A DNA stretch of 64,000 nt from a virus: the IMG/VR virus record IMGVR_UViG_3300005253_000946; one strand, written 5' to 3'. Of the stretch, positions 14,232-35,671 are shown in pieces (within the stretch, counting starts at the first letter, position 1; every line of letters starts with the position of its first letter). Position numbers and translations under genes: made by a program. Below the pieces are notes generated by a model. The model made no database searches and had not been told where the DNA came from. It worked only from the letters and a program-made list of their open reading frames with translations.

Positions 14232-14235
14232 ATCT

Positions 14236-15351: not shown

Positions 15352-16740
15352 CTAAACCTTGATTGATATAAAATCGTAACCCATTTCGGCTAAGACCTTC
15401 TTAGCTTTCTTGGCTGTGCTGTAAGTAGGGGCAATAAGCGGATCTTCGAATACAATACAGAGAGGGTCTTTCTTTCCTTCATACTCTCTTTGCGCTCTTC
15501 CCAACAACTGTCTCCAGAATATCGGTTTAGAGTAAGGTATGGTGACAAAAATAGTGTCTAGTTCTTCCTTGTCTAACGCTTCGTATCCTAACTCATGTGT
15601 AGCTACTAAGACCTTGCCTTCCGTTATATCTTGTTGTCGCTTAGCCCTCCTACCCTTACCAACTACTCCATAGATCAGCTTGGCATCAACACCAAGGTTA
15701 GTCAACTGTTCGTGTAGATATTCAGCGTGAGCTTTTGTAGGGGTACAGATCATTATAGTTCTTCCTGCCTTAATCGCTTTCATAACCTCTTGTAAAATAA
15801 AAGAGTTTCGATCTTCATCTTCGAGGACGAATTTAACAATCTTAGAGGATATAATACGTCCTGTATCTAGATTTACATAATCATCTAGATTCTTTACTTC
15901 TGTTTTTGTTCTTAAAAACCTGATATTTATTTTTAACGGCTGTTCCAGATTTATGTATAGAGGTTCTCCTAGATGATACTGATAAATCTTCTCCATACCA
16001 TCAGACCGTTCGTGTGTAGCTGTTATACCTAATCTACGGCCTATAAAGAGATTCGCTGCTCTAGAGAATACCTCGGCCGCTACATGATGTGCTTCGTCAT
16101 AGATAGCTGTTCCGAATCTTAACCTGTAGCGCATACTAACTTTCCCACGGCTAGAAGCTAAAGTATGTATCATCGCTATAACGATAGGCTTTAGAAAATT
16201 TTTATCGTTGATTGATTTGGTTCCCGACACCAGCCCTATGTCTCTTTTATCCCAGAGGGTTAGTTTTTCTATTTCGTTAGACCACTGACTCATAAGCTGT
16301 GTTTTATTTACCACTACTATAATAGGGTGAGTAGGAGCGATTAGTGCCTCCTTTAATGATATAGCCGTTTTACCTCTACCACATGCCAGAACTAGTGTAC
16401 CTTCCTTACCTCTTATAGCTTTTAGAGCCTCCCTTTGAATATCGTCCCTGGGTTCTATAGACGAGTGTACGTTAACCTTTTCAAATTCTTTATAGACACT
16501 TATGTCTACAAAAGGTATACCGGCTTTAAGTAGCTGCTCCTGGGTATAAAAATTACGAGGAACTATTAGGTGTGTATCTGTCTCTTTCCATATAGCTATA
16601 CTCCTAACTGTTCCTGTAGATGGAAAAAACGTCAACGAGTTTTTAACTACCTGTACGTTAACCAGCTTCTTCGGCAACAGTAGGTCGAATATCTTGTACG
16701 CAGTATCATTTTTTAGGGGTAATATTCTTCGTTTTGGCAA
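15352..16740 (-). CDS. SF2 DEAH helicase (UvsW/XPB-like)
   Basis: LACGRGKT, YDEAHH, GITATHERSDG, EALD, QLLGRAQR; TTG start with AGGAG RBS. Confidence 0.88.
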   Translation of the reverse strand: MPKRRILPLKNDTAYKIFDLLLPKKLVNVQVVKNSLTFFPSTGTVRSIAIWKETDTHLIVPRNFYTQEQLLKAGIPFVDISVYKEFEKVNVHSSIEPRDDIQREALKAIRGKEGTLVLACGRGKTAISLKEALIAPTHPIIVVVNKTQLMSQWSNEIEKLTLWDKRDIGLVSGTKSINDKNFLKPIVIAMIHTLASSRGKVSMRYRLRFGTAIYDEAHHVAAEVFSRAANLFIGRRLGITATHERSDGMEKIYQYHLGEPLYINLEQPLKINIRFLRTKTEVKNLDDYVNLDTGRIISSKIVKFVLEDEDRNSFILQEVMKAIKAGRTIMICTPTKAHAEYLHEQLTNLGVDAKLIYGVVGKGRRAKRQQDITEGKVLVATHELGYEALDKEELDTIFVTIPYSKPIFWRQLLGRAQREYEGKKDPLCIVFEDPLIAPTYSTAKKAKKVLAEMGYDFISIKV

Positions 16741-17200
16741 CTTTAAATCTCCTGGTTAGAAAATAGTCTGAAACTTCTCTAGCTGCGGCAGATATAGCCC
16801 TTTCAATAGATCTTATTGCTACCTCAATCATTACCTCTTTAAAAGGTCTACTTTCCACTGCTTCTAGCAAAGGAGGTATTTCCCTTGGGTGGTTATGGTT
16901 TGTGCGATCAATATCTGTAGCACCACTATTACCTCCCCAAGCAGATATTTTACAAGAGGACCGTTTAGCGCACTTAACACACTCACGGTGACCTTCTTCA
17001 TAAGTTCCATAACATGGGTGAGTATCATATACTGAGCCTGCTCCTTTCGCTTTCTTAGATTTCTTTAACAACGGTCTCGATGCTTCATTGTTTATAGTTT
17101 CAGTTCTGCAACTAGATTTTTCGAAGCAGTATTCACATTCAGAATTACCATCCTCGTAGTGCATACTGTAACAGTAATCTCGATTATCTCTATCTCTCAT
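16706..17200 (-). CDS. Cys-rich hypothetical protein (first gene of the replication operon)
   Basis: Two similar Cys modules (CYSMHYEDGNSECEYCFEKSSC and CYGTYEEGHRECVKCAKRSSC); probable start MRDRD at 17200 with GAGGAG RBS (ORF track begins at 17257). Confidence 0.65.
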   Translation of the reverse strand: MRDRDNRDYCYSMHYEDGNSECEYCFEKSSCRTETINNEASRPLLKKSKKAKGAGSVYDTHPCYGTYEEGHRECVKCAKRSSCKISAWGGNSGATDIDRTNHNHPREIPPLLEAVESRPFKEVMIEVAIRSIERAISAAAREVSDYFLTRRFKVAKTKNITPKK

Positions 17201-17352
17201 TGTAAGGTGTAGCTCCTCTTGGTTAAAAGTGGGTAACAAACTGCTGCGTGTAAACATCTTATGCTATTAAATCCGTACCCTTACTTGACGTTAGAAGGCT
17301 ATTAGTAGAGAATCATAATGAAACCCTGTATCCATAATCGGAGGCAAAAGTC

Positions 17353-19340: not shown

Positions 19341-21224
19341 ATGTCTTCTTTGGTAACTGTAGGTAGTACTTCTAGGTTTAATAGACGAACCCGGTCCGAC
19401 TTAGCTAGTCGAGGGATCATTCGTTACCCTCACCCATTTTTTAATGTAGCTCAGACATATCTTCCTAGTTCGATAAAAGAGTTGTTTGATCTTTTAGAGT
19501 ATTACTTTAGCTCTACAGGATTTTTAAACGCGGCTATAATGAATATGGCCGCTTACCCTATAACTGATCTGTCTTTCGAGCACGATAATGAAGACATTAT
19601 TTCTAGATACGAATTGTTGTTTGAAGAAAACTTAAAGATCTATGACTTCCAAATAGAGATAGGTATGGATTACTTCAATTATGGTAATGCCTTTGCCTCT
19701 ATTAATTACCCGCTACAGAAGAGGCTCAAGTGCCGTAACTGTAAGAAGTACAGCAATATCGAAGAAGTGAACTTTAAGTTGGTTGAAGGTAAGTTTCAAT
19801 TTAAAGGCGCTTGTCCAAACTGCAAAGAAATATCTTTGATGGATCCAGAAGATGTTTACCGTAAATCAGAGAAGGAACTGAATCTGATACGTTGGAACCC
19901 GCATGATATAGGTATTATATACAACCCTCTTACACATAAAAATGTGTACACATACACTATACCGGCAGCTACCCGAAAGCTAATAAAAAAAGGTGATCGT
20001 AATACTATAAAAGATCTACCTAACATTTTTATTGAGGCTGCTATTAAGAATAAACCGATTATTTTTAATCCTGGATCAATCTATCATTTCAAGCGACCTA
20101 GTATCTCAGGTAAATTCAATGGATGGGGAACTCCATTACCTATGCCTGTTTTACAAGACCTGTTCTATTTAAAGGTATTACGTAAGGCTAATGAAGCCAT
20201 TGCTATGGAGCACATTGTTCCTCTACGTGTTATTTACCCATCCGGCCAAACTGAGCACGGTACAGCCTATTCATCGTTAAGCTTAAGTACTTGGAAGACT
20301 AACGTAGAGACTGAGATTAAACGTTGGAGATTGGACCCCAATCATATCCCTATCTTCCCATTACCTATAGGACTGCAATCTTTTGGTGGCCAGGGTAAGG
20401 CCATGATGCTTACACAAGAAATACGTATGAGGATGGAAGAAACTATCGCCGGTATGGGTGTACCACGAGAATTTGTATTTGGTGGCCTGACATACTCTGG
20501 TTCTAGTATGAGTATTAGAATGTTGGAGAACTTATTTATACGGTATCGTACCTCTCAAAATGGTTTCCTCAAATGGGTATTAGAACGTGTCCATGTGTAC
20601 CTAGGATGGCCTTCTGTATCTACTAGAATGACTGACTTCAAAATGGCTGATGATCTGCAGAAGAAGCAGATTCTCATTACACTTAATGCATCGCAGAAGA
20701 TATCAGATCACGCTTTGTTGGACGAATTCGGTTTCGACTATGATGAACAATCTGCCATGCTTGAGGACGAGCTAAAAAAGAAACTTCATTTCAGGAAGGT
20801 AGAGAACGACATCAACGCGATGCTGCAAGGGCAGTCTATGTTGATACAACAACGTTACCAACAAAAGCTACAAGAGCTTATAGGAAGTATCGGAGAGGCT
20901 GGAGCAACTGTGCCAGAAGGGGTACAAAATCAAGCCCAAGAAGCCCAACAAGTATTAGACAGAGGTCAAGAAGCCGAAGATGGTGCTGTGAATATAGATG
21001 CCCGCAATCTTCTTAACTACTACGCTAAAGAGATGTCTGAAATGAATGAGGCTCAGAAACAGGCTGTTCTAGACAAAATGAAGGGTGAGATGCCTGAACT
21101 TCACGGTAAGCTTATACAGATGCTCACTGGAGGAGATCCTTCCAAGTCAGAAAACAAACCACTACCAGAAATCAAGCCGCCACGTAGAAAAGTAGGAGGT
21201 CAGGTAGCTGGTTCTACTAGCTAA
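19341..21224 (+). CDS. putative portal protein with Zn-ribbon insertion
   Basis: Size and motif order (YFNYGNAF, LIRWNP, IYHFKR, WGTP..MPV, long helices) are portal-like; CRNC...CPNC insertion. Confidence 0.6.
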   Translation: MSSLVTVGSTSRFNRRTRSDLASRGIIRYPHPFFNVAQTYLPSSIKELFDLLEYYFSSTGFLNAAIMNMAAYPITDLSFEHDNEDIISRYELLFEENLKIYDFQIEIGMDYFNYGNAFASINYPLQKRLKCRNCKKYSNIEEVNFKLVEGKFQFKGACPNCKEISLMDPEDVYRKSEKELNLIRWNPHDIGIIYNPLTHKNVYTYTIPAATRKLIKKGDRNTIKDLPNIFIEAAIKNKPIIFNPGSIYHFKRPSISGKFNGWGTPLPMPVLQDLFYLKVLRKANEAIAMEHIVPLRVIYPSGQTEHGTAYSSLSLSTWKTNVETEIKRWRLDPNHIPIFPLPIGLQSFGGQGKAMMLTQEIRMRMEETIAGMGVPREFVFGGLTYSGSSMSIRMLENLFIRYRTSQNGFLKWVLERVHVYLGWPSVSTRMTDFKMADDLQKKQILITLNASQKISDHALLDEFGFDYDEQSAMLEDELKKKLHFRKVENDINAMLQGQSMLIQQRYQQKLQELIGSIGEAGATVPEGVQNQAQEAQQVLDRGQEAEDGAVNIDARNLLNYYAKEMSEMNEAQKQAVLDKMKGEMPELHGKLIQMLTGGDPSKSENKPLPEIKPPRRKVGGQVAGSTS

Positions 21225-21381
21225 ACCTGCTTCTAAATTCTACATAGTCATTGATAGAGTGTGGACTGTTAAAAAATTTTACGATGTCGCTCCACTCTAT
21301 TAACGCTTCTGCCAGTGCCATAAATAATCCAGATAATAAACCTGTAGAGATTAGGATAATTGTAGTCCTATCTAGGGTCAC
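21217..21381 (-). CDS. small predicted single-pass membrane protein (54 aa), absent from the ORF track
   Basis: GTG start overlaps the upstream stop (GTGA); MTLDRTTIILISTGLLSGLFMALAEALIEWSDIVKFFNSPHSINDYVEFRSRFS. Confidence 0.5.
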   Translation of the reverse strand: MTLDRTTIILISTGLLSGLFMALAEALIEWSDIVKFFNSPHSINDYVEFRSRFS

Positions 21382-21455
21382 TCCTCAGCCCCGCTGATAC
21401 CACACATATCTTCTAATGTATCTTGTAAGTCTTCACACGGATCGTAGTCGTCCAT
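21378..21455 (-). CDS. acidic mini-protein (25 aa), absent from the ORF track
   Basis: AAGGAG RBS then MDDYDPCEDLQDTLEDMCGISGAEE. Confidence 0.5.
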   Translation of the reverse strand: MDDYDPCEDLQDTLEDMCGISGAEE

Positions 21456-21491: not shown

Positions 21492-21504
21492 TTACCTTAT
21501 GACA
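21492..21504 (-). promoter_or_regulatory. TGTNATAAG motif (putative phage promoter)
   Basis: TGTCATAAGGTAA about 40 nt upstream of the mini-ORF pair; motif recurs before other minus-strand genes. Confidence 0.5.
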
Positions 21505-21607
21505 TAAAACCACTACTCTATTTCATAGATTGACCTAACATTTTAGGATGTGGTATTACTATTAAGAGAACTTATACGCTACCTCCAACACCAAGAAGGT
21601 TGTAATA

Positions 21608-24600
21608 ATGGCGCATCTAAACCCAGCCGACCAATTCGAATCTCTTAAAAAAAGGGTAGTCCAAACCTTACAGACTACTGTGTTCCCTATAACAGGTGGT
21701 AAGCACACATTAGAGGCTAAAAAGATTTGGGTTGATGACTCACTATCTATCAATGATTTAGGATCACAGAAAGATGCTAAACTAAAAGGTGGTAGCTGGA
21801 CTGTACCTGTAAACGCTCACCTGGTACTCAAAGATTCGAAGACCGGAAAAATTATAGACGAGCGGCCGAAGATCCGTATTATGAATCTTCCAAAGGTTAC
21901 TCGCAGGTTCTCTTTTATTGTTGGAGGAACAGAGTATCAACCTAAAGGGCAGTTCAGGCTTAAGTCTGGTGTGTACTCCACAATCAGTGGTAAGGGCGAA
22001 GTTATAGCTAAGGTAAACATGGTAATCGGGCTTAAAGGATGGGGAGGAAGTTCACATGTAAAACTAGATCAGGCCAACGGAATCTTTTACTTCTTGCCTG
22101 AGACTTCTACAGGTACTTCAATACTCCTGTACCCTATACTCAAAATGATGGGTATCGGTGATGCCCAGATGCAAAGATATTGGGGTAAGGAATTACTAGA
22201 AACTAATCGAACCTTTAGTTCTGGTAAAGAAGAACGAAATCTAAACAAGCTATACGCAAAACTTACTGGTGAGAAATCTACTGACCAAGATGCAGTAAAG
22301 AGTCTTTTATTAGACTCATTTAAAGGTACTAAGCTTAGGGAAGACTCTACAAAAATAACTCTCGGTAAGGCTGTATCTAAGCTAGATGGAGAAGCTCTTC
22401 TGCTTACTTCATCTAAGCTGATTAAGTTGTCAAAAGGAGAAGCCAAACCGGATGACACAGATTCACTGGCCTTCAAAGACTTTGCTGACATAGACGATTT
22501 TATCTCGGAACATATCGAGGCAAAGGTGAAGACGATCCATCGCAAGATCAAGAATAACCTTAATGACAAAGTTGCTATTAGGGATATAGTCTCGTCTTCC
22601 TATTTTACCGAACCTGTAAGAAGTTTCTTTACTAGTACACAGTTGTCGGACAAGCCGGAGCAGGTTAACCCTCTTGAGATGATTAGCGGCCAATTAAAAA
22701 CCACCATTATGGGAGAAGGAGGAGGTATTACTGATCCCAATAAAATACGACCGAATCTGCGTCAGGTTAATCCTTCTCACTTAGGATTCCTAGACCCTAT
22801 CCATACACCAGAAGGAGATAAGACCGGTATAACATTGAACCTACCTATCGGTGCTAGTAAAAAAGGTAATGAGCTACGTACAACTTTTTACTCTATTAAA
22901 CGCAAAAAACTTGTGAAGGTGTCCCCTCTGGAGTCCATTCATTCCGTAGTAGCTTTTGCTGATCAATACATTAAAGAGTCTGATGGGACATATACTCCTA
23001 AAGAAAAAATAGTAAAAGTAGTCTCTAAAGATGGTGAGATACAAAAAGTCCCAGCTACTACGGTTGATTATGTTATACCAAGCCCGTCCGTGCTTTTTGA
23101 TGTCACTACAAACATGATACCATTTCTGAGTAACAACTCAGGTGCTAGAGCCTTCATGGCTTCTAAACAGATAGAGCAAGCTGTCAGTTTAGTACACAGA
23201 GAAGAACCTTTAGTTCAGGTAAGAGCGTCAGACAAATCAGAACATACTTTTGAAAGAGCTGTAGGACGAACCAGTGCTCACATATCCCCTATTGACGGCA
23301 AAGTAACAAGGGTAACTGAAACAGACATCTATGTTCGAGGGGACAATGGTAAGAGTATAAAAGTACCTTACTACAATAATTTCCCGCTCAATAGTAAACA
23401 GATGTTACACGCCACACCAGTTGTAAGGGCTGGGGACACGGTTACAAAAGGACAGTTATTGGCTGACTCTAACTTTACTAAAAATGGTGTGTTGTCATTA
23501 GGAGTAAATTTGGATGTAGGCTACATGCCGTTCAAAGGATACAACTATGAAGATGGTATAGTTATATCGGAAAAAGCTGCTGAGAAGCTGACCTCTGAGC
23601 ACCTTTATAAATTCTTAGTTACTGTGGGTCCAAATACTGAATTAAGTCTTAGGAAGTTTACTGCACACAGTCCTAATATACTTTCAGTAAAAAACTTAGA
23701 GAAACTAGACTCTAGAGGTGTTGTAAAGAAAGGGTCGACTGTTTATGAGGAAGATTATCTTGTAGCGGTCCTCAATAAAGTGGAGCTTACTAAAGAGCAA
23801 GTAATGATGCGTAAGTTTAAAAGCTCTCTGATTTCTGCTTATAGTACTAGTAAGAGTATTATGTGGGATAAGAGATTTCCGGGAACTGTCACTGATGTAT
23901 CGGTATCTGGTAAAGATGTAGTTGTCTATGTAAAAACACAAGAGCCTATGATTGTAGGAGATAAACTGATCGGCAGACACGGAAACAAAGGTATTGTCAC
24001 AATGATAGTACCTCAAAATGAGATGCCTACAACTAAGAGTGGAAAACCTTTAGAAGTATTATTGAACCCTACAGGTGTACCTGGACGTATTAACCCTGGC
24101 CAGGTCTTAGAGACTATGGCAGGTAAGATTGCTGATAAGATTGGAAAGCCTCTAAAAATGGTTAACTTTGATGGCAAGAATGCTGTTGACCATTTAATTA
24201 AAGAACTTAAGAAACATAAACTATCTGACACTGAAGACGTCTTAGATCCAAAGACCGGACGTTCAATAGGTAAAGTAATGGTAGGTAAGCAGTATATGCT
24301 TAAGCTTATCCACCAGATAGATAAGGGTACTTCTACTCGCTCTACAGGCCCTTATGAGAGTACATCAAGAGCACCAGCTCGTGGAGGTAAAGCTAGTGCT
24401 AGTAGGTTAGGAGAACTGGGCAACTACGCGATGCTGGCTCATGGAGCTAAAGCTAACTTGTTTGATGCCTATAACTATAAAACAGAGCGAAACGATGATG
24501 TTTGGTACGCTTTAGTTGAAGGCGCTCCACTTCCTAAAACTAAACCAGCATTTGTGTTTGACAAGTTTACCGGGTATCTAAACGCTCTCGGAGTAAATGT

Positions 24601-27600
24601 AGAAAAGAAAGGTACTAAATTTCAGTTAATCCCTTTCACAGAGAAGCAGATACTAGATATGAGTAGCGGTGAACTCAAAGACGCCGGACAAATGGTTAAA
24701 GGAAAGAGCTTGAAGCCTATTAGAAATGGCCTGTTTGATGAAGAGCTGACTGGAGGCCTTGAAGGAACCAAATGGACTCATATAGATCTCGGAGAGAGGT
24801 TCGCTAATCCTGTATTTGAGAAACCACTGAAGTATATTCTAGATATATCTGAGAAGGAGTTCGAGGATATTAAGAATGGTAAGACTGTAGTTAAAGGCAA
24901 AACTGGAGGAGATCTCTTCTACGATATGCTGAAAAAGGTAGATGTAGATAAAGAGCTTAAAGAAGCTATAGAGAAAGCTAGAAAGTCTAAAGCAGCCACG
25001 ACATCCAAAGTTCATCGTCGTATTCGATACTTGAAGTCTTTGAAAGAGTTAGGTATCAGACCAGAAGAGGCTTACGTTAAAAAATCTCTACCTGTATTAC
25101 CTCCAGCTTTTAGACCGTTGACCATTACTGAAGAAGGTAACATACGAGATCGAGGTCTCAATGGTATTTACAAAGGAGTGTTTTTACTGGCTGACAAATT
25201 CAAAGAGGCTAAGAAGGTAGGATTACCTGATGAGGATTTAAATAAGCTACGTACTGAAATATACGATGCTCTACAAGCATTTACAGGTATAGGAGGTCAT
25301 ATAAGTATTGGTGGCAAAGGTCGTAGACCAAAAGGTATCATGGAAATACTAGGTGCCAGTAAATCTGGTGCAGAACAACGTGTGTCTGCTAAAGAAGGTT
25401 TCTTCCAGAACAAGGTACTGAAGCGTCGACAAGATTTTACAGCTCGAACAACTATTGTTCCAGAACCAAGGTTAGGTTTAGATGAGATAGGTATACCTGA
25501 GAACCTTGCTTGGGAACTATACAAACCATTTATCATTAAAGATCTGACTAAAACTCTTTTTATGGCCCCTCTTAGAGCTAGAGAGGAAGTCTCGAAGAAG
25601 AGTAAGTTGGCACGTACAGCGTTAAGTAGAGTGATGAAAGATAGGCCAGTACTGGCTAAGCGAGATCCTGCTTTACACAAATATAACGTACAAGCGTTTG
25701 ATCCTATCATTACTGCTGGCCGTGCTATCAAGATTAACCCTCTTGTAACTAGTAGCTATAACGCTGACTTCGATGGTGATAAAATGCCTATATTCTTACC
25801 TATTTCTAAAGATGCGGTTGCAGAAGCACATAGATTAAAGCCTTCTAATAACCTGTTTTCTGCAGCTCACGGTAAGTTGATGTACAAACCGACACAAGAA
25901 GCACAGTTAGGTTTGTTCCTACTTACTAAAGAAGGTAAGAAGACAGGTCTGTCTTTCACATCCCAAAAAGATATTATGACAGCCTTTAAACAACGCCGTC
26001 TTAAAATAGACGATGTTGTTACCCTTAAAGGTAGAAAGACAACTATCGGTAAAGAGATAATAAGAGGAATGTTACCTAAAGGTATGCAGACTAAAGAAAT
26101 GTTAAGGGTTGTGAAGAAGACTTTCGATAGGAACGTGCTCACTGAATTCTTAAACATAGCTGCAAAACGAGATCCAGGAAGGTTCGGGGTAATAGTCAAT
26201 AAGATAAAGAACCTAGGTAATGAGAAGGCTACTGGGTACTCATTTAAGTTAGCCGATTTTAAACCTATTAACAAAAGCACAAGAGATAGACTGTTTAAAG
26301 CTGCTGAGAAAGAAGCTGCCAAGATCGACAAAGATAAGTCTTTATCTAAAGATGAGCGTAATGAAAAGAAGGCTGCTGTATTTATGGAGGTAGTTAAAAC
26401 GTTAGACAAAAAGATGATCGATCACTTTAAAAGTTCTGACTCCGGGATAGGTGCTTTATTATTATCTGGTGCTGTAAATAAGCCCGCTCAAGTAAGATCT
26501 ATGATCAGTGCTCCTGGTGTTGTAACTGGACCAGATGATAAACCTCTACCAGTTCCAGTAACAAAATCCTACTCTGAAGGACTGGATTTAGGTAGTTACT
26601 GGAATTCTATGTCTGCTGCACGTAAGACTATGATACAGAAAACTATTGAGGTGCGTAATCCTGGATATTTAACAAAACAGTTGATGAACACAACGATAGG
26701 TATGGTAATATCTGAGGCTGATTGTGGTACTAAAAGGGGTATTTCTTTAGAGACCGAAGATCCTGAGATCATAGGTCGGGTACTAGCTAATGGAGTTAAA
26801 GTAGGCTCCATCTCAGTCAGGCGTGGGACTGTTATAACTCCAGAAGTTATTACCCGTCTGATTAATAATAGAATACCTAAGATAGTTGTTCGATCACCTA
26901 TGCGTTGCGAATCTATAAACGGCGTATGCCAAAAATGTTATGGAAAAAATGAGACTGGAGCGTTCCCTGAGATAGGCACTAATGTTGGAGCCATAGCTTC
27001 ACAATCTTTAGGGGAACCATCAACTCAGTTAATAATGAGAGCCTTCCATACAGGAGGTACTGTATCTGCTAAGAGTAATGTATTAAATACCTTTGACCGG
27101 GTGTCTCAATTAGTACGCCTACCAAAAACAGTACCGGGATCTGCTACTTTAGCTGGTTCTGACGGATCTATTGAAAGTATCAACAAAGCTCCGGCCGGTG
27201 GGTGGAATGTAAGTTTAGGAGGTATAGCTCATTACATCCCTCAAGACAGAGGTTTGAGAATAAAAAAAGGTCAGACAGTTAAAAAAGGGTCACCTATCAG
27301 TGGTGGGGTTATAAACCCAAGAGAGTTGTTAGAATTAAAAGGTATCGACGCTACCCAGAATTATATAGCTGGTTCACTGTACGATTCCTACAAGACAGAG
27401 GGGCCTATTAATCGTAGACATGCCGAGATTATGACTAGAGGTATTACGAATATCTCTCAGGTCAGAGACCCTGGAGGTAATGAGGTTGTGGTTCCCGGAG
27501 ATATTGTACCGACGACTTTGGTAGAGAATTTTAATCGCACAGGCAGGATTAGAACTGTAGCTCCGGTAGATGCTTTCAATTCTACTTTACTAGAACCAGT

Positions 27601-27913
27601 TGCTGGTTTGAGTAGAGGTAAACGTCTTAATGAAGACGACATACAAAAACTTAAGAGGCATGGTATACAAACTGTTAAGGTAGCTGCAGATCCTATAATT
27701 TCTGAAATTAATCTCAAAGGGGTTGAGATGGCCCCGTTAGCTGTTAGTGAAGACTGGATGGCCAGAATGAACTTCAACCGTTTAAAAGAGACTGTGCTCG
27801 AAGCAGCAGGTCAAGGTTGGATTTCTGATGTACACAGCTCTAACCCTATACCGGCTTTAGCTTACGGAGCTGAGATAGGTAAACCACCGGAAGATAAACC
27901 TTGGGCGTACTAG
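21608..27913 (+). CDS. rpoBC: single-chain fused beta-beta' DNA-directed RNA polymerase (2101 aa)
   Basis: beta motifs PSHLGFLDPIHTPEG, GYNYEDG, GDKLIGRHGNKG, LNPTGVPGRINPGQ, SRLGELG; beta' motifs LPVLPPAFRP, KRDPALH, catalytic NADFDGD (25760-25780), GYLTKQL, CYG, QSLGEPSTQL..RAFHTGG, all in one ORF. Confidence 0.97.
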   Translation: MAHLNPADQFESLKKRVVQTLQTTVFPITGGKHTLEAKKIWVDDSLSINDLGSQKDAKLKGGSWTVPVNAHLVLKDSKTGKIIDERPKIRIMNLPKVTRRFSFIVGGTEYQPKGQFRLKSGVYSTISGKGEVIAKVNMVIGLKGWGGSSHVKLDQANGIFYFLPETSTGTSILLYPILKMMGIGDAQMQRYWGKELLETNRTFSSGKEERNLNKLYAKLTGEKSTDQDAVKSLLLDSFKGTKLREDSTKITLGKAVSKLDGEALLLTSSKLIKLSKGEAKPDDTDSLAFKDFADIDDFISEHIEAKVKTIHRKIKNNLNDKVAIRDIVSSSYFTEPVRSFFTSTQLSDKPEQVNPLEMISGQLKTTIMGEGGGITDPNKIRPNLRQVNPSHLGFLDPIHTPEGDKTGITLNLPIGASKKGNELRTTFYSIKRKKLVKVSPLESIHSVVAFADQYIKESDGTYTPKEKIVKVVSKDGEIQKVPATTVDYVIPSPSVLFDVTTNMIPFLSNNSGARAFMASKQIEQAVSLVHREEPLVQVRASDKSEHTFERAVGRTSAHISPIDGKVTRVTETDIYVRGDNGKSIKVPYYNNFPLNSKQMLHATPVVRAGDTVTKGQLLADSNFTKNGVLSLGVNLDVGYMPFKGYNYEDGIVISEKAAEKLTSEHLYKFLVTVGPNTELSLRKFTAHSPNILSVKNLEKLDSRGVVKKGSTVYEEDYLVAVLNKVELTKEQVMMRKFKSSLISAYSTSKSIMWDKRFPGTVTDVSVSGKDVVVYVKTQEPMIVGDKLIGRHGNKGIVTMIVPQNEMPTTKSGKPLEVLLNPTGVPGRINPGQVLETMAGKIADKIGKPLKMVNFDGKNAVDHLIKELKKHKLSDTEDVLDPKTGRSIGKVMVGKQYMLKLIHQIDKGTSTRSTGPYESTSRAPARGGKASASRLGELGNYAMLAHGAKANLFDAYNYKTERNDDVWYALVEGAPLPKTKPAFVFDKFTGYLNALGVNVEKKGTKFQLIPFTEKQILDMSSGELKDAGQMVKGKSLKPIRNGLFDEELTGGLEGTKWTHIDLGERFANPVFEKPLKYILDISEKEFEDIKNGKTVVKGKTGGDLFYDMLKKVDVDKELKEAIEKARKSKAATTSKVHRRIRYLKSLKELGIRPEEAYVKKSLPVLPPAFRPLTITEEGNIRDRGLNGIYKGVFLLADKFKEAKKVGLPDEDLNKLRTEIYDALQAFTGIGGHISIGGKGRRPKGIMEILGASKSGAEQRVSAKEGFFQNKVLKRRQDFTARTTIVPEPRLGLDEIGIPENLAWELYKPFIIKDLTKTLFMAPLRAREEVSKKSKLARTALSRVMKDRPVLAKRDPALHKYNVQAFDPIITAGRAIKINPLVTSSYNADFDGDKMPIFLPISKDAVAEAHRLKPSNNLFSAAHGKLMYKPTQEAQLGLFLLTKEGKKTGLSFTSQKDIMTAFKQRRLKIDDVVTLKGRKTTIGKEIIRGMLPKGMQTKEMLRVVKKTFDRNVLTEFLNIAAKRDPGRFGVIVNKIKNLGNEKATGYSFKLADFKPINKSTRDRLFKAAEKEAAKIDKDKSLSKDERNEKKAAVFMEVVKTLDKKMIDHFKSSDSGIGALLLSGAVNKPAQVRSMISAPGVVTGPDDKPLPVPVTKSYSEGLDLGSYWNSMSAARKTMIQKTIEVRNPGYLTKQLMNTTIGMVISEADCGTKRGISLETEDPEIIGRVLANGVKVGSISVRRGTVITPEVITRLINNRIPKIVVRSPMRCESINGVCQKCYGKNETGAFPEIGTNVGAIASQSLGEPSTQLIMRAFHTGGTVSAKSNVLNTFDRVSQLVRLPKTVPGSATLAGSDGSIESINKAPAGGWNVSLGGIAHYIPQDRGLRIKKGQTVKKGSPISGGVINPRELLELKGIDATQNYIAGSLYDSYKTEGPINRRHAEIMTRGITNISQVRDPGGNEVVVPGDIVPTTLVENFNRTGRIRTVAPVDAFNSTLLEPVAGLSRGKRLNEDDIQKLKRHGIQTVKVAADPIISEINLKGVEMAPLAVSEDWMARMNFNRLKETVLEAAGQGWISDVHSSNPIPALAYGAEIGKPPEDKPWAY

Positions 27914-27919
27914 CTAAAA

Positions 27920-27951
27920 GAGGGGTGGGGACATTAAGCCCCCACACCCTC
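27920..27951. terminator. GC-rich hairpin between convergent genes
   Basis: gaggggtgggg-acattaagc-ccccacaccctc. Confidence 0.6.
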
Positions 27952-27971
27952 CCACTCTTACTAGGAGACTC

Positions 27972-28751
27972 CTACGAGGCTTTCGCCATCGTCTTTTTAG
28001 GAGCTGCTTTTTTATTGGTGGTCGGTTTCTTCTTCGTTTTCTTGGTTGAGGTTTTTGCTTTAGCTACAGGTTTCTTCGCAGTCTTTTTAGCTGCTTTCTT
28101 GGCCGGGGCTTTCTTTTTAGTTTCAACGGTTTTGGTTTCTTTAACCGACACCACTTTACCGGTTGTTTTGTCCGTTGATACTGTCAGACCTGCTACTTGG
28201 ACTAGCTCTACTTCTCCAGAAGCTTCTTCTGGTAGAAGGCTGCGACCAGGCATCAAGATATCAATCATACGTCGGCTGGTATCTATTGGTTTGCCTTTTG
28301 AGAGATCCTCTGATGCTTTTGAGGCACCGATGGCGACTTCAAGTATACCAGCGATAACCAGCATCTTTGTCTCAGCGTGCCAGTCCCTATCTACATTGTT
28401 ATTGAATTCAATGTGCGCCCTGTCGTCAGGAATTCTGGCTTGCACCTCCACATCTATACCCATGTGGGGCATTGGCGGTAGGAAGATGGTACATCTAAGA
28501 CCGTGGCCTCTAAAATCTCTAAAGACCTGGACCCCTTGTTCGATGTCTAGAAAGTCAGAGTATGTAATAAATTCCACAGGGGCCTTAAATCTACCGAGGT
28601 TGATTAAATACCTTTTCAGGTTTTCTACCAGCCACGACGCATTTTTGTGTCCGTTGTTTCTGATCCACACAGACCTTTCTTTCACAAATTCGGTTACTTC
28701 GCTTTTTTCAAATCCGGCCGCTTCTAATTGGTTTTTTATGTCTGTTGACAT
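27972..28751 (-). CDS. hypothetical protein with histone H1-like Lys/Ala/Pro/Thr tail
   Basis: C-terminus KKKAPAKKAAKKTAKKPVAKAKTSTKKTKKKPTTNKKAAPKKTMAKAS; AGGAGG RBS. Confidence 0.7.
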   Translation of the reverse strand: MSTDIKNQLEAAGFEKSEVTEFVKERSVWIRNNGHKNASWLVENLKRYLINLGRFKAPVEFITYSDFLDIEQGVQVFRDFRGHGLRCTIFLPPMPHMGIDVEVQARIPDDRAHIEFNNNVDRDWHAETKMLVIAGILEVAIGASKASEDLSKGKPIDTSRRMIDILMPGRSLLPEEASGEVELVQVAGLTVSTDKTTGKVVSVKETKTVETKKKAPAKKAAKKTAKKPVAKAKTSTKKTKKKPTTNKKAAPKKTMAKAS

Positions 28752-28801
28752 GAGCTATCCTCCTAGGAGAGTGTTAGAGTTTCAGGCTAATTGCCTTCAT
28801 A

Positions 28802-28813
28802 GTTCTTATAACA
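28802..28813 (-). promoter_or_regulatory. TGTNATAAG motif (putative phage promoter)
   Basis: TGTTATAAGAAC about 50 nt upstream of the 28751 start. Confidence 0.5.
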
Positions 28814-28836
28814 ATTTTTAGGACGGAATTTTAGCG

Positions 28837-29835
28837 ATGAGACGCCAATCAAAACCTTGGTTTCCTGTTTCAGATTACAGGATGCCGGAGATTATTTACT
28901 GTAGAGTCAGTAATGTGGATCTTGATAAGTACACACTTACAGCTGTAGGGGACATCGGTAATAGATCCTTCTTCAGTCTTCCGTGGGCATCTCCTTATGT
29001 CAACATAAATCAAGGGCAAGGAACTTATTGTATCCCAGAAGTAGGTTCTCGCGGATATGTCGTAATACCCTCCGACAACACAGACCCTTTCTTTTTGACA
29101 TTTATAATGCCTCAGAGTACCGATTTTTATCGAGGTGGTAGAAGTAAAAAACTCAATCCAGGAGATCAAGTTATGATTTCTGAGGATGGTAACGGTGTTA
29201 TAGTACGAAAAGGTGGTGTGACTCAGATAATGTCTACACCTATCTGCCAGAGGATGTTTATACCTATTAACAACTTCATTAAAGACTACTGTGAAAACTT
29301 CCAATTATTTAGTGCTGGAGGAACTATGACTTGGGTAGTTAACAAAACACTTTTAAATAAAACAGCATTCGAACTAAGAGCTAAGACACAAGCAGAATTA
29401 CCGCCTACAATAAAGTTTGCTCTTGGAGATCTTACAGGCTTATTAGATGAGCTACCTATGACAGGTGTAACAGCTCCTGCAGATATTCACGGATTACTTT
29501 CTATTGGCGAAGGTCTATTTACGATGAGAATAGACGCTGTAGGTAACTGCGAGATGAAAGGGTTAGAAAGTTCTGAGACCTGGCTTACAGGTAAGACAAT
29601 CACAGCCCCTGTTATAAAATTCGGATCAATAGCTGCCTCATCTCCGGCCGCTAAAGGTGATGCCGTTATTCAACTACTTACTAGCTTCTTAAACGCCTTT
29701 ATAAACAATTCAGAGATATCTACGCTCGGCAATATGGGTGCTCCGGTAGTCACTAATCCAGCAATTATTACTGAGCTGACTACTATTCTAGGACAAGTAA
29801 GCACTATAGCTTCCCTGAAAGTGTTGATCGAATAA
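28837..29835 (+). CDS. baseplate central spike (gpV/gp5-like)
   Basis: N-terminal OB-fold pattern (CRVSNVD...PWASP...CIPEVGSRGYV), short beta repeats, C-terminal AAKGDAVIQLL...GNMGAPV. Confidence 0.6.
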   Translation: MRRQSKPWFPVSDYRMPEIIYCRVSNVDLDKYTLTAVGDIGNRSFFSLPWASPYVNINQGQGTYCIPEVGSRGYVVIPSDNTDPFFLTFIMPQSTDFYRGGRSKKLNPGDQVMISEDGNGVIVRKGGVTQIMSTPICQRMFIPINNFIKDYCENFQLFSAGGTMTWVVNKTLLNKTAFELRAKTQAELPPTIKFALGDLTGLLDELPMTGVTAPADIHGLLSIGEGLFTMRIDAVGNCEMKGLESSETWLTGKTITAPVIKFGSIAASSPAAKGDAVIQLLTSFLNAFINNSEISTLGNMGAPVVTNPAIITELTTILGQVSTIASLKVLIE

Positions 29836-30284: not shown

Positions 30285-32330
30285 ATGGAAGCCCAAATAA
30301 GACCGGATCTATTTTTAAACCACGAACTTAAGTTCGAAAAAATGGCTGCTGCTCAACTGAGTGACTATGCAGGCAAATGGGATCAAGAGATTCTGCAAGA
30401 GGCCTACAAACAGGTTCCGTATCTAGGTGATTATCAAACTACACTTGTACTGGACCGAAAAGATGAAGAGCGTGGAACAGCGTTAGGTTATATCTCGGTT
30501 AAAACAAAAACAGGTACTACTGAGAGCACTAGTGGAGCCACCACTAAGGACTTTGATGTAGTCATTCCTATAATCGTTAAAGACAATAAGCTTTTTAACC
30601 TAGATATATTACGAATTAGTACGAAGTTCTTTCCGCTTACTCAAGATCGTTTAGCTGAAGCTCTCTTCAATCCCAGCATTTTTGAACTGATTACCAAGAA
30701 TCGTCACTTTGATACGTCTATTCTAGATGTCTTAGAGCCAGCAGTGAAGGATAGGTATGGGTTCGGTTTAGGGGTAACTAATCTCCTTAAACAAGGTTCA
30801 GCAAACGTTACTCCTATTTCTTTGCTTAAAGAAGCTACTGCGTCTATGATAGATACTGATAAGAATGTGTTTTTAAATTCGCTAGACGACAATATTGTGC
30901 ACGCAATGACGAACAATGACACAATTGGTTCACTAGACATTATTGTTGCAGCAGAACCTAAGTTTACAAAAGAAGCGTCTGCAATTGCTGTGTTGTCTGT
31001 TTCCCCTGACGTTATTTCTTTACGTAAAACACGTCCTAATTCGTACATCTTAAAGACAGCTAATGCAGAGGGTTATGCCCCTATCACTCTTAATATAAAC
31101 AAAGCAGAAGCTGTCCTTGCAACTAACGAAGAGTTTGTTAAAGAAGCAGACCTTACACCACTTTCTGTAGAGAAGACCTCTAGACCAGCTCAGTTAGAGG
31201 ATTTGATTAAAAAACCTCAGAGTAAAAAATTAGATAACAGTAATATTATTGTCGCTAAAGACGCAGGATCTGGCAGGTCTACTATAGGTATGTACTTCAA
31301 TAGGATAGTTGATTTTGACAACGTATTACTCCCTGTGTGTTTATTCACAAACCTTTCTCAGTACAGCTACCAAGAAAGTATCGCTGGAGATAGTCTGAAA
31401 AAGTTATATTTAGATGACAGAGGTAGTAAGAAATTATTTAAGATTCCTGCTGCTGGTGACCTTGGTGTTTTTGTAGTAGACGAAAATAAAGCCACTAACT
31501 ACGACTCAGTGGTGACAATCCCTCTTAAAATTGTCACTGTTATACGAGACCTTGGTGCTACTAAATACGTCTGTACCACTATCGAAGACAATCCAGTTAC
31601 TCTTATCCCTGATTCTAATGTTACAAAGTTCATGGCTACGGGAGAAGGATCTTATTTATATCCTTCAGAATTAAAGTTCCTACCTATAGGCACCCAACCT
31701 GTGGGGTTAATAAAAGATTCTGCTGAGTTTGACAAAATAGCTTCACTAGAAGGTGTTTCTAGACGTGTAGTTATTAAGTCATCTGGAGGCTCTTATACTC
31801 TTAGTGGTAATCCGGTAGACACACTAGATTCGAAGGACAAAGAGTTTCTTAACAAAGAAGCTGCCAGGATGGTTTTAGGAGCTGCGGGGTTTAGTTCTTC
31901 TATGTCCAACCCTGTTCTAGATACTGCTGACAGAACTAGAAGAACACAATATCTTGATGGTGCCGTCAGAATAGTTAATCCTCCTATGTCCAAAGTAGCT
32001 AAGATTAAAGAAGCTATTCAACCGGTGTATGAATTCACCAATAAACTAAAAAGAAACCTGGTAAAAGAGGCTGCTGTAGTTCCAGATGAAGCGTCAGTAG
32101 ATGCGATACTATCATTAAGTTTTATCAATCCCGACAACATAAATGTCTTTATTGAATCTCTACCTCAGTTAAAAGTTATTCAGTCTAGATTATCTGAGTT
32201 ACTTATTGGGGTAAGGTTAGGTATTCCTTCTATTCCTGAGTCCGCTGTCCGTAGAGCTATTACAGCTATAGATGAGGTAATGAAAGGCCTCTCAGTATTA
32301 GAGCAGCAGAATAGGACACTGCTGACCTAA
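30285..32330 (+). CDS. large putative virion core protein with repeated K-x-A motifs
   Basis: 681 aa; EKMAA, KEAT, KEAS, KTAN, KEAD, KIAS, KEAA (twice), KVA. Confidence 0.55.
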   Translation: MEAQIRPDLFLNHELKFEKMAAAQLSDYAGKWDQEILQEAYKQVPYLGDYQTTLVLDRKDEERGTALGYISVKTKTGTTESTSGATTKDFDVVIPIIVKDNKLFNLDILRISTKFFPLTQDRLAEALFNPSIFELITKNRHFDTSILDVLEPAVKDRYGFGLGVTNLLKQGSANVTPISLLKEATASMIDTDKNVFLNSLDDNIVHAMTNNDTIGSLDIIVAAEPKFTKEASAIAVLSVSPDVISLRKTRPNSYILKTANAEGYAPITLNINKAEAVLATNEEFVKEADLTPLSVEKTSRPAQLEDLIKKPQSKKLDNSNIIVAKDAGSGRSTIGMYFNRIVDFDNVLLPVCLFTNLSQYSYQESIAGDSLKKLYLDDRGSKKLFKIPAAGDLGVFVVDENKATNYDSVVTIPLKIVTVIRDLGATKYVCTTIEDNPVTLIPDSNVTKFMATGEGSYLYPSELKFLPIGTQPVGLIKDSAEFDKIASLEGVSRRVVIKSSGGSYTLSGNPVDTLDSKDKEFLNKEAARMVLGAAGFSSSMSNPVLDTADRTRRTQYLDGAVRIVNPPMSKVAKIKEAIQPVYEFTNKLKRNLVKEAAVVPDEASVDAILSLSFINPDNINVFIESLPQLKVIQSRLSELLIGVRLGIPSIPESAVRRAITAIDEVMKGLSVLEQQNRTLLT

Positions 32331-34048: not shown

Positions 34049-35671
34049 ATGCGTGTTGTAGACCATATAAATAAAAAAAGAACTGAACGACTCCCAGTAA
34101 AGTTATCTAATTTTGTGGAGTACGCTATCCTTGTAGACGGTAAGGTTATGGATTTTACTAACAGACCTTACTTGAGAGAGATTTATGACACCAGTGCCAG
34201 AGAGATTTTATTAATGTGTGGTCGGCAGGTTGAGAAATCTACATCTAGTGGTAACAAAATGTTGAGTAGGAGTATCATAAACTCTTATAGAAAAAGCGTC
34301 TATACAGCCCCTACCCAACCACAGGTAAGACAATTCTCCGATGATAGGCTAAAAGAACCTATGACATCGTCCCCTAACTTAGCCCCGTTTACAAATACTT
34401 CACTCCTTAAGAATGTGTTTGAGAAGAGGTTCGCTACTAGATCTAAAATAACTTTGAGGTCCGCACATCTTAACGCTGACCGTGTTCGTGGTATACCAGC
34501 TGACGATATCTACATCGATGAGATTCAAGATGTAGCCGTAGACGGTATACCTGTTATTAGAGAATGTGCTGCGAACTCTCCTGACCCTAAGTTTCAATAC
34601 TCAGGAACCCCTAAAACAAAAGACAACACAATCCATGAGTATTGGCAACGCTCTACTATGAAAGAGTGGATGATACCTTGTGGGTGTAAAAAATGGTATT
34701 GGAATTTACCTGGGGAAGATAATATAGGTACTACCGGGTTGATATGTAGTAACTGCGGTAAGCGTATAAACCCATTGAATGGTCAGTGGATTAGGACAGG
34801 TAGGGAATTAGGTACAGAAGCCCACCAGACGTTCGTAGAAGGCTTCAGAATACCTCAGATAATAGTTCCATCCCATCAACCCTTAAGTAAATGGATAGAA
34901 ATCCTCAATAAACAGCGTAACTACCCTATAGCAAAGTTCTATAATGAAGTTTTAGCACTCCCATTCGATTTAGGTGCTAAACCTATTACTCTAGAAGAAC
35001 TTCAAAACACATGTGACCCCGGCCGGTCTAATACACCATACCCTACAACAGGGGTAGCTGCGGCCCCCACTTATGCAGGTATTGATTGGGGTGAAGGTTC
35101 GGGTGAAGGAGGATTCTCTGTTCTTACAATAGGGGTAGCTAATTCTATAAATAGAGGTATAGATGTCTTGTTTATAAAGAGGTATGAAGGCAGAGAGGCT
35201 CTACCTGAAGTAATGATTCCAGACATGGCTAAGTATATTAATATGTACAATTGTAACAGGGTAGGAGCTGATTATGGATTTGGATTTGGACTTAATGACA
35301 GACTAGCTAAGATGATTGGGTATGAAAGATTCTTTAGATACCAGTACACAGGTGCACAAAGAGAGAAGGTAAGGTGGAATGATAAGATCGGCCGCTTTGT
35401 TCTAAACAGAACTTCTATTATGAGCTACATGTTTGAATTACTTAAGAGAGGGCAACAAAAAGGGCCTGGTCTTAGACTATTTAAATGGAAGGACTTTGAA
35501 CCTTTCGCTAAAGACGTCCTCTCTATATTTTCAGAAGAGAACACTTCACTACATATGAAGGTGTACAGTAAAACCCCAGGCAAGCCTGATGACACATTTC
35601 ACTCAATCACATACATGGTACTCGTATCACTACTCGATTTTATGCGTGAAGATTTCATTCAGTCAGACTAA
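34049..35671 (+). CDS. terL: terminase large subunit (lambda gpA-like)
   Basis: GRQVEKST Walker A, IYIDEIQD Walker B, SGTPK coupling motif, CGC...CSNCG Zn site, nuclease motifs GIDWG, GADYG, PDDTFH. Confidence 0.9.
   Translation: MRVVDHINKKRTERLPVKLSNFVEYAILVDGKVMDFTNRPYLREIYDTSAREILLMCGRQVEKSTSSGNKMLSRSIINSYRKSVYTAPTQPQVRQFSDDRLKEPMTSSPNLAPFTNTSLLKNVFEKRFATRSKITLRSAHLNADRVRGIPADDIYIDEIQDVAVDGIPVIRECAANSPDPKFQYSGTPKTKDNTIHEYWQRSTMKEWMIPCGCKKWYWNLPGEDNIGTTGLICSNCGKRINPLNGQWIRTGRELGTEAHQTFVEGFRIPQIIVPSHQPLSKWIEILNKQRNYPIAKFYNEVLALPFDLGAKPITLEELQNTCDPGRSNTPYPTTGVAAAPTYAGIDWGEGSGEGGFSVLTIGVANSINRGIDVLFIKRYEGREALPEVMIPDMAKYINMYNCNRVGADYGFGFGLNDRLAKMIGYERFFRYQYTGAQREKVRWNDKIGRFVLNRTSIMSYMFELLKRGQQKGPGLRLFKWKDFEPFAKDVLSIFSEENTSLHMKVYSKTPGKPDDTFHSITYMVLVSLLDFMREDFIQSD

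What the first reader, a model, noticed from the sequence alone, without database searches (positions are those of the whole stretch)
21608..27913. Single-chain beta-beta' RNA polymerase inside the virion module, with no alpha, omega or sigma in the window
Seen: all main beta and beta' catalytic motifs in one 2101-aa ORF, well short of the roughly 2750 aa of E. coli beta plus beta', placed between the portal and spike genes. Known: a lineage of environmental tailed phages encodes deep-branching cellular-like RNAPs (Weinheimer and Aylward 2020), whereas phiKZ-type RNAPs are split into several genes. Inference: a minimal self-sufficient two-barrel enzyme, possibly packaged in the virion to transcribe early genes.
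Basis: partly seen in the sequence, partly recalled or inferred. Interest (0 to 1): 0.7.

Follow-up and report, generated by a model that had tools for sequence, protein, structure and literature searches.

The report
Single-chain phage RNA polymerase beside portal
An uncultured large contractile-tailed phage encodes both big catalytic subunits of a bacterial-type RNA polymerase as one 2101-residue protein between its portal and tail-spike genes; this is the usual layout in a very large, barely studied phage lineage that also has its own sigma factor and probably carries the enzyme in the virus particle.

Summary
ORF 21608-27913 (+) is an intact 2101-aa head-to-tail fusion of RNAP beta (about residues 1-1003) and beta' (about 1004-2101). 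All catalytic elements are present. The window holds no sigma, alpha or omega.

It is the shared bacterial core without the E. coli lineage-specific inserts and without the beta' N-terminal zinc-binding domain. It has no extra domains.

It is not a bacterial capture. Bacterial homologues are at most 30% identical, and in two trees the phage enzymes sit across a long, fully supported branch from 11 bacterial phyla.

It is not rare. Most of the 150 closest 50%-identity cluster representatives are fused proteins of 2000 aa or more. The gene order portal, RNAP, gp5-like spike, terminase recurs in most relatives long enough to show it.

The closest cultured relatives are Salmonella phage Arash and Vibrio phages D69/D148/D181, whose enzyme is split in two. 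In Arash, the RNAP and a sigma (gp10) were detected in virion preparations.

"Self-sufficient" is not supported. The sigma docking elements are kept. A fused-RNAP relative encodes an orthologue of Arash gp10 in a similarly ordered operon of large virion-type genes.

Virion packaging is plausible but unproven. This scan has already reported the same enzyme type in several other genomes.

The parts
21608..27913 (+). Single ORF of 2101 aa: RNAP beta fused head-to-tail to beta'
21608..24616 (+). beta part (about res 1-1003). It lacks E. coli beta 225-343 and 938-1040 (SI1 and SI2 by my own knowledge) and about 1128-1178
23771..23812 (+). beta flap-tip helix equivalent (res 722-735, LTKEQVMMRKF), the sigma region 4 docking site in bacteria
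   Evidence: alignment; weakly conserved in the rest of the clade
23972..23992 (+). beta active-site motif GRHGNKG (res 789-795)
   Evidence: invariant in the fused relatives (Arash and D69 have GLHGNKG)
24602..24640 (+). beta/beta' junction: the end of beta (LGVNVE) runs straight into the start of beta' with no linker. The beta C-terminal tail and about 14 N-terminal beta' residues are missing
24617..27913 (+). beta' part (about res 1004-2101). There is no SI3 insert in the trigger loop
24740..24790 (+). Site of the deleted beta' zinc-binding domain (E. coli beta' 64-88, CxC...CxxC); the deletion is shared by the whole phage clade
25157..25312 (+). beta' clamp helices (coiled coil; sigma region 2 docking site), normal length
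25760..25780 (+). beta' catalytic motif NADFDGD (res 1385-1391)
26723..26938 (+). Second zinc site: Cys1706, Cys1767, Cys1774, Cys1777
19341..21224 (+). Portal protein (627 aa)
   Evidence: 31-33% identity to the Arash gp204 portal and its D69 homologue; lies upstream of the RNAP in most relatives whose locus reaches that far
21530..21559 (+). Promoter-like TTGACC-N18-TATTAC with TG upstream, 49 nt before the RNAP start codon
   Evidence: read from the sequence; weak, because such matches are not above chance in the region
21217..21455 (-). Minus-strand pair of small ORFs (25 aa then 54 aa, overlapping GTGA stop/start) between portal and RNAP, preceded by TGTCATAAG (21496-21504)
   Evidence: a 54-aa minus-strand gene is called at the same position in relative L106, with no sequence similarity
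27925..27945 (.). GC-rich hairpin between the convergent RNAP gene and the minus-strand 259-aa gene
27972..28751 (-). 259-aa gene of unknown function, convergent with the RNAP gene. It replaces the spurious + ORF 27901-28821
28837..29835 (+). gp5/gpV-like central baseplate spike (332 aa)
   Evidence: ESM Atlas; homologues in relatives reach the Pfam cut-offs for Phage_base_V and Gp5_C; follows the RNAP in most relatives whose locus reaches that far
34049..35671 (+). Terminase large subunit

Best explanation
The gene encodes a catalytically competent, single-chain core RNA polymerase of bacterial type. It belongs to a large lineage of tailed phages with contigs up to about 200 kb, whose cultured members are Salmonella phage Arash and Vibrio phages D69/D148/D181. 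Shown: beta and beta' are joined end to end, with all active-site elements intact. The shared bacterial core is otherwise kept, with only small loop and terminal deletions; what is missing is the lineage-specific inserts and the beta' zinc-binding domain. No alpha or omega homologue is detectable in the window, in three partial contigs of fused-form relatives, or in the complete genomes of two cultured split-form relatives. Inferred: covalent fusion replaces the alpha dimer as the assembly platform. The core is not self-sufficient: it finds promoters through a phage sigma factor (the Arash gp10 family) encoded elsewhere in the genome within a virion operon. Because the RNAP gene is kept beside the portal gene across the lineage, and the enzyme and gp10 were found in Arash virion preparations, the core (with sigma) is probably loaded into the capsid and delivered with the DNA to start phage transcription independently of the host enzyme. 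The rifampicin-pocket residues differ from those of sensitive bacterial enzymes, so it is probably insensitive to rifampicin.
For: Identity and integrity. Lineage: more than 100 clusters of fused proteins of about 2050 aa at 39-44% identity, on contigs up to 204 kb. There are 3499 cluster representatives at E<=1e-30 for the beta' half, and most of the top 150 are 2000 aa or longer with the match starting near residue 1000. The phage clade lies on one side of a 100% SH-aLRT branch against 26 bacteria from 11 phyla, and the beta'-only tree agrees. Bacterial identity is at most 30%. Synteny portal-RNAP-spike-terminase recurs in IMG/VR relatives down to 28% identity, and portal-RNAP is kept in Arash and D69. 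Sigma docking elements are kept. Sigma genes in relatives: two annotated in Arash, one in D69. G001, whose fused RNAP is 41% identical to the window's, has a 263-aa protein that matches phrog_351 sigma factor (3.5e-13) and is 31% identical to Arash gp10 (E 7e-25). It sits in the same gene order as gp6-gp8-gp10. Virion: in Arash, gp206 gave 3516 spectra (the most of any protein), gp216 gave 1210 and sigma gp10 gave 467, whereas the second sigma, gp196, is absent from the portion of the table I saw (PMC10585845). No alpha or omega. Rifampicin pocket: the equivalents of D516, H526 and S531 are E, G and T.
Against: No member of the lineage has been tested biochemically. The Arash proteome lists 116 of 272 proteins, including ribonucleotide reductases, ligases and helicases. 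Its authors allow that abundant enzymes may simply co-purify. In this window the RNAP gene is its own unit, flanked by minus-strand genes and with its own promoter-like site and hairpin. Co-expression with the portal gene is therefore not shown. The flap-tip helix is poorly conserved in other clade members, and the zinc-binding domain is missing, so sigma binding may differ from the bacterial mode. My trees use LG+G4 with a short search and no archaeal outgroup; the mixture-model run did not finish.
Confidence: 0.6

Rival explanations
1. The enzyme is a non-virion polymerase. The host RNAP transcribes the phage RNAP and sigma genes after infection, and the phage holoenzyme then runs middle and late transcription (a T7-like or AR9 nvRNAP-like scheme). 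It is not packaged, and its presence in Arash preparations is carry-over.
For: The RNAP gene is an insulated unit with a sigma-70-like TTGACC-N18-TATTAC site. The Arash virion list contains many obviously non-structural enzymes, and the authors raise carry-over themselves. gp206 spectral counts exceed those of the major capsid protein, which is hard to reconcile with a low-copy cargo protein.
Against: The portal-RNAP adjacency is kept down to 28% identity. The gp10-type sigma sits inside an operon of large virion-type genes in both Arash and G001. Only one RNAP is found per genome in Arash. Sigma-70-like matches are not above chance in this region.
Confidence: 0.3
2. One reading: a self-sufficient minimal two-barrel enzyme that recognises promoters without sigma, like YonO or crAss-like gp66.
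For: There is no sigma, alpha or omega in the 64-kb window. The beta' zinc-binding domain is deleted.
Against: The clamp helices and a flap-tip helix are retained. Sigma genes were found in both cultured relatives and in most of the longer related contigs searched: G001, G003 and G004 have hits, while G002 (94 kb, about half complete) has none and G005 only a marginal one. The gp10-type sigma was found with the RNAP in Arash particles.
Confidence: 0.07
3. The gene is a recently captured or decaying bacterial rpoBC.
For: None beyond the general bacterial-type domain order.
Against: Identity to any of 599 bacterial loci is at most 30%. A long, fully supported branch separates the phage clade from bacteria. 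All catalytic residues are intact. G+C is the same as in the rest of the window. Thousands of phage relatives exist.
Confidence: 0.02

Closest known systems
RNAP of Salmonella phage Arash (gp206 + gp216, sigma gp10; OQ632216.1; PMC10585845) and of Vibrio phages D69, D148 and D181
   Same: Homologous over the whole length (32-34% identity). The gene lies next to the portal gene. No alpha or omega. The phage has its own sigma. They are the sister group of the fused clade in both trees.
   Different: Their enzyme is in two chains: beta plus the front of beta', and the back of beta'. The cut falls near window residue 1465-1479, about E. coli beta' 560. The active-site motifs read AADYDGD and GLHGNKG instead of NADFDGD and GRHGNKG. 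Here everything is one chain.
mReC, multi-subunit RNAP-encoding Caudovirales (Weinheimer and Aylward 2020, PMC7481178)
   Same: Tailed-phage RNAPs recognisable with cellular beta and beta' models, branching outside cellular clades, on contigs with head and tail genes.
   Different: Every mReC entry I could read lists separate beta (900-1521 aa) and beta' (899-1391 aa) genes, and some jumbo contigs carry two sets. The paper mentions fusion only for crAss-like phages. No fused-clade contig matched their list by sample and length. Shared clade membership was not tested.
phiKZ/AR9-type virion and non-virion RNAPs of jumbo phages
   Same: Phage-encoded relatives of beta and beta' without alpha or omega; the virion form is injected to transcribe early genes (PMC7598289, PMC7824862, PMC13282480).
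   Different: Those are split into four or five polypeptides, are much more divergent, and have no sigma; promoter recognition uses gp68 or gp226. Here the enzyme is one chain, close to the bacterial core, in a lineage with sigma factors.
crAss-like gp66 and YonO single-chain two-barrel RNAPs
   Same: One polypeptide holds both barrels; by my own knowledge, gp66 is carried in the virion.
   Different: Those show no recognisable homology to the beta and beta' models. This protein matches four Pfam beta and beta' domains above their cut-offs, plus two weaker ones, and matches solved bacterial beta' chains at E 1e-105.
Natural beta-beta' fusion (rpoBC) of Helicobacter and Wolbachia (own knowledge, not tested here)
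   Same: The same head-to-tail order: the end of beta joins the start of beta'.
   Different: Those are cellular enzymes of about 2900 aa that keep alpha, omega and the zinc-binding domain.

Membership tests
Multisubunit (two double-psi beta-barrel) RNA polymerase, beta and beta' homologues | Matches to the beta and beta' domain models above curated cut-offs | tested here: met
   Rpb2_6 208.6 bits, Rpb2_3 35.0, Rpb1_2 98.2 and Rpb1_5 94.4, all above cut-off; Rpb1_1 and Rpb1_3 match below cut-off. Solved bacterial beta' chains match at E 1e-105.
Multisubunit (two double-psi beta-barrel) RNA polymerase, beta and beta' homologues | Catalytic aspartate triad NADFDGD, beta GRHGNKG, bridge helix and trigger loop | tested here: met
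Bacterial-type sigma-dependent core enzyme | beta' clamp helices and beta flap-tip helix present | tested here: met
   Alignment with five bacterial enzymes. The flap tip is clear in the window protein and weaker in other clade members.
Bacterial-type sigma-dependent core enzyme | A sigma factor encoded by the same genome | not testable with these tools
   None in the window. The rest of the genome is not held. An unchecked note reports one 18.6 kb upstream. Relatives have one.
Bacterial-type sigma-dependent core enzyme | Alpha dimer and omega subunit | tested here: not met
   No Pfam hit in the window's ORFs, in the complete Arash and D69 genomes, or in three related contigs; all 14 control genomes hit.
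Bacterial-type sigma-dependent core enzyme | beta' N-terminal zinc-binding domain | tested here: not met
   The four-cysteine segment is deleted in the window and in all aligned phage relatives.
Arash-like phage RNAP lineage | Groups with Arash and D69 to the exclusion of bacteria | tested here: met
   100% SH-aLRT in two trees.
Arash-like phage RNAP lineage | Gene lies next to the portal gene | tested here: met
mReC clade (PMC7481178) | Monophyly with the published mReC sequences | not tested
   No mReC sequence could be identified among the fetched loci.
Virion-packaged RNAP | Protein present in purified particles | not testable with these tools
   The only evidence is the published proteome of the 33%-identical Arash enzyme.
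phiKZ-type phage RNAP | beta and beta' split into four or five polypeptides, no sigma in the genome | tested here: not met
   A single ORF; relatives encode sigma.

The most novel reading that the evidence does not exclude
The lineage carries a complete private transcription machine: a single-chain core without alpha or omega, plus a sigma encoded among virion genes. Both are packed into the capsid and injected, so that infection needs no host RNA polymerase. This would be the smallest natural sigma-dependent cellular-type RNAP, and a case where covalent fusion replaces the alpha assembly platform.
Probability: 0.4. Interest if true: 0.75.

Novelty: new variant of a known kind. Interest (0 to 1): 0.55.

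Why it matters
Reviews of phage transcription describe two options: phages with split, sigma-less phiKZ-type polymerases, and phages that only supply sigma factors to the host enzyme. This lineage combines a near-bacterial core with its own sigma. It does so in one chain of about 235 kDa (my estimate from its length), without alpha, omega or the zinc-binding domain.

If active, it would be a compact natural model for how a cellular-type polymerase assembles and binds sigma. It could also serve as an orthogonal, probably rifampicin-insensitive, transcription module.

The lineage is very large in metagenomes, yet I found no paper that describes the fused form.

This window adds one more, rather divergent, member (nearest relative 48% identical in beta'). 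It does not add a new principle, and the scan has already reported the same enzyme type in several other genomes.

Tried and rejected
- **Whole-genome search:** not possible, because no genome is held for this window. Megablast of the gene against cultured phages found nothing.
- **Mixture-model tree:** LG+C20 did not finish in two runs, so I report LG+G4.
- **Link to mReC:** A near-match in length (P0020's contig versus an HMP mReC contig) proved to be coincidence, because that mReC contig has separate 1407-aa and 1301-aa genes.
- **Neighbouring ORFs:** Pfam and PHROGs gave no hits for most of them. The ESM Atlas gave nothing usable for the 681-aa protein 30285-32330.
- **Promoters:**
  - Sigma-70-type matches are not above chance (41 found versus 41.6 expected).
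  - TTGAC is only slightly enriched between genes (4 versus 1.9).
  - TGTNATAAG (6 versus 3.4) and GMAAWN-N18-TAAG (5 versus 4.1) are not above chance in number.
- **N-terminal capsid-targeting leader:** I considered that the RNAP N-terminus might be one, like the K-x-A leaders noted elsewhere in this genome. I rejected this because residues 1-30 are conserved across the clade and appear, by my own reading against the E. coli sequence, to correspond to the beta N-terminus; the computed alignment shows only small N-terminal deletions there.
- **+ strand ORF 27901-28821:** rejected as a gene. Its translation is hydrophobic low-complexity sequence opposite a plausible minus-strand protein.
Full report
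**The object**

ORF 21608-27913 on the + strand is open for 2101 codons from an ATG. Pfam places RNAP Rpb2 domains 3 and 6 in residues 351-926, and Rpb1 domains 1, 2, 3 and 5 in residues 1114-1849. The strongest matches are Rpb2_6 at 2e-61, Rpb1_2 at 8e-28 and Rpb1_5 at 1e-26; Rpb1_1 and Rpb1_3 fall below their curated cut-offs. Solved bacterial beta' chains match at E down to 4e-105.

Against E. coli, residues 56-999 cover beta 84-1338, and residues 1096-1977 cover beta' 177-1290. The gaps fall at beta about 164-424, 939-1048 and 1128-1178, and at beta' 943-1188. From my own knowledge these hold the lineage-specific inserts SI1, SI2, a third beta insert, and SI3.

**Anatomy**

I aligned the protein with five bacterial enzymes and seven phage relatives.
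- The end of beta (LGVNVE) runs straight into the start of beta', with no linker.
- GRHGNKG, NADFDGD, the bridge helix, the trigger loop and the second zinc site (four cysteines) are intact. They are invariant among the fused relatives.
- The beta' N-terminal zinc-binding domain (E. coli beta' 64-88) is deleted in every phage sequence.
- Apart from that, the clade differs from the shared bacterial core only by deletions of 8-14 residues. It has no insertion of 8 residues or more.
- The enzyme is therefore the common core, trimmed: 2101 aa, against 2316-2749 aa in the five bacteria.
- The beta' clamp helices have normal length. The flap tip reads LTKEQVMMRKF, against LTPEEKLLRAIF in E. coli. 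These are the two sigma docking sites.
- In the rifampicin pocket, the equivalents of D516, H526 and S531 are E, G and T. I infer insensitivity to rifampicin; this is not shown.

**Surroundings**

The window has a minus-strand replication block at 1-17257. It contains family A DNA polymerase, helicases, primase, a RecA/UvsX-like recombinase and UDG. The dCTP deaminase lies in a second minus-strand stretch near the window's other end, at 61916-62479. A long + strand virion block follows from 17353, with major head protein and tail sheath families.
- The gene before the RNAP, 19341-21224, is the portal: 31% identity to the annotated Arash portal, E 1e-87.
- Gene 28837-29835 is a gp5/gpV-like central spike. 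The ESM Atlas features and structure point to Phage_base_V. Its homologues in relatives reach the Pfam cut-offs for Phage_base_V and Gp5_C.
- The large terminase is at 34049-35671.

The RNAP gene is not simply the next cistron after the portal gene.
- The 383-nt gap upstream holds two small overlapping minus-strand ORFs.
- The sequence just downstream is a hairpin (27925-27945), followed by a convergent 259-aa minus-strand gene.
- The + ORF 27901-28821 is an antisense artefact.
- A TTGACC-N18-TATTAC site lies 49 nt before the start codon, but such matches are not above chance here.

**Sigma, alpha and omega**

None is in the window. The Pfam tally over 66 ORFs shows none. phmmer with five relatives' sigma proteins and a profile of 21 gp10-type sigmas found nothing. 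The rest of the genome is not available to me. An earlier, unchecked note of this scan reports a group-3 sigma inside the tail/baseplate operon, 18.6 kb before the window's start.

I tested the idea in relatives instead.
- Arash has two annotated sigmas and D69 has one.
- Contig G001 has a fused RNAP 41% identical to the window's. It encodes a 263-aa protein with Sigma70_r3 above cut-off and a phrog_351 sigma factor match at 3.5e-13.
- That protein is 31% identical to Arash gp10 (E 7e-25). It sits behind homologues of gp6 and gp8, in the same order as in Arash.
- This sigma family has 23 clusters in metagenomes.
- Alpha (PF01000, PF01193) and omega (PF01192) have no hit in the complete Arash and D69 genomes or in three contigs. 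All 14 control genomes hit.

**Relatives and phylogeny**

- The 5.8-billion-protein search returned more than 100 clusters of fused proteins of about 2040-2110 aa at 39-44% identity. They lie on contigs up to 204 kb, and several are lengthened by inteins.
- The exhaustive search with the beta' half found 3499 representatives at E<=1e-30. Most of the top 150 are 2000 aa or longer, with the match starting near residue 1000. The nearest is 48% identical.
- Only about ten shorter beta'-only proteins reach 33-42% identity, and many of those may be cut genes.
- In most IMG/VR loci that reach far enough, the order portal, RNAP, spike, 681-aa protein, terminase recurs. In the 28%-identical L013-L015 group only portal-RNAP could be confirmed.
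- A scan of 185,579 species' genomes gave only ordinary rpoBC loci at 25-30% identity.
- In the tree of concatenated beta and beta' (42 rows, 1980 columns, LG+G4), the 16 phage rows lie on one side of a 100% SH-aLRT branch about 1.1 substitutions per site long. On the other side are 26 bacteria from 11 phyla.
- In that tree the window sits inside the fused clade, Arash plus D69 are its sister, and L013 is deepest.
- The beta'-only tree agrees. It shows the fused state throughout, with a few short forms scattered inside.
- Caveats: the search was short, there is no mixture model, there is no archaeal outgroup, and the root is unknown.

**Literature**

- Weinheimer and Aylward (PMC7481178) describe RNAP-encoding Caudovirales. 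Their tables list only separate beta and beta' genes, and they mention fusion only for crAss-like phages.
- The Arash paper (PMC10585845) reports gp206 as the protein with the most spectra in virion preparations (3516). gp216 gave 1210 and sigma gp10 gave 467.
- The same paper lists 116 of 272 proteins, and its authors allow for carry-over of abundant enzymes.
- Reviews of jumbo-phage transcription describe sigma-less split polymerases, or sigma-only phages.
- I found no paper on the fused bacterial-type form.

**Reading**

- Shown: an intact single-chain beta-beta' core of a large phage lineage. It is not a bacterial capture, it sits beside the portal and spike genes, and no alpha or omega is detectable in the lineage.
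- Inferred with fair support: it works with a phage sigma of the gp10 family.
- Inferred with moderate support: it is loaded into capsids and injected.
- The main rival is a non-virion enzyme made after infection.

**Relation to this scan**

Earlier follow-ups in other genomes reached the same reading: fused or two-chain RNAP beside the portal gene, Arash as the closest known relative, and a sigma in the lineage. I saw those only after my own analysis, so they are agreement, not evidence.

Noticed in passing
window 27901-28821 (+) versus 27972-28751 (-): The longest ORF here (+ strand, 306 aa, TTG start) translates to hydrophobic low-complexity sequence and is probably an antisense artefact. 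The minus-strand 259-aa ORF looks like the real gene, with TGTTATAAG upstream and a hairpin downstream. It has no family match and no homologue in the fetched loci.
   Followed up: partly
window 21217-21455 (-): Two small overlapping minus-strand ORFs (25 aa with an AAGGAG ribosome site, then 54 aa) lie between the portal and RNAP genes. A 54-aa minus-strand gene is called at the same position in relative L106 (9755-9919), but the two are not similar in sequence.
   Followed up: partly
window 21496-21530, 36017-36044, 61594-61621 (all minus strand): Three intergenic sites ahead of small minus-strand genes share GAAA(T/A)-N17-19-TGTNATAAG, a possible phage promoter class. All six TGTNATAAG copies in the window are on the minus strand, but the count (6 versus 3.4 expected) is not above chance.
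   Followed up: partly
window 17285-17313, 21530-21559, 37857-37885, 59900-59929 (+): TTGAC(N)-N17/18-TAnnnT sites stand before several + strand operons, including the RNAP gene. The enrichment between genes is weak (4 versus 1.9 expected).
   Followed up: partly
relatives: L006 3816-8765 and 9986-18472; L007; proteins P0042, P0045, P0107, P0119 and others: Many relatives carry inteins or homing-endonuclease domains (PF14528, PF14890, PF03161, PF05204) inside the fused RNAP gene, giving proteins of 2400-4700 aa. In L006 and L007 the portal ORF is also greatly lengthened. The window's own RNAP has none.
   Followed up: no
L001 (Arash) and L002 (Vibrio phage D69): The two-chain relatives have variant active-site motifs: AADYDGD instead of NADFDGD, and GLHGNKG instead of GRHGNKG.
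   Followed up: no
PMC7481178, Supplementary Data 2: Several mReC jumbo contigs list two different beta/beta' gene pairs (about 1360+1005 aa and about 1019+900 aa) on one contig. That means two polymerases per phage, unlike the single enzyme found in Arash.
   Followed up: no
window 37052-37831 (-): A 259-aa minus-strand protein has a weak N-terminal HTH_17 match (E 0.006). It sits between head-module operons and may be a regulator.
   Followed up: no
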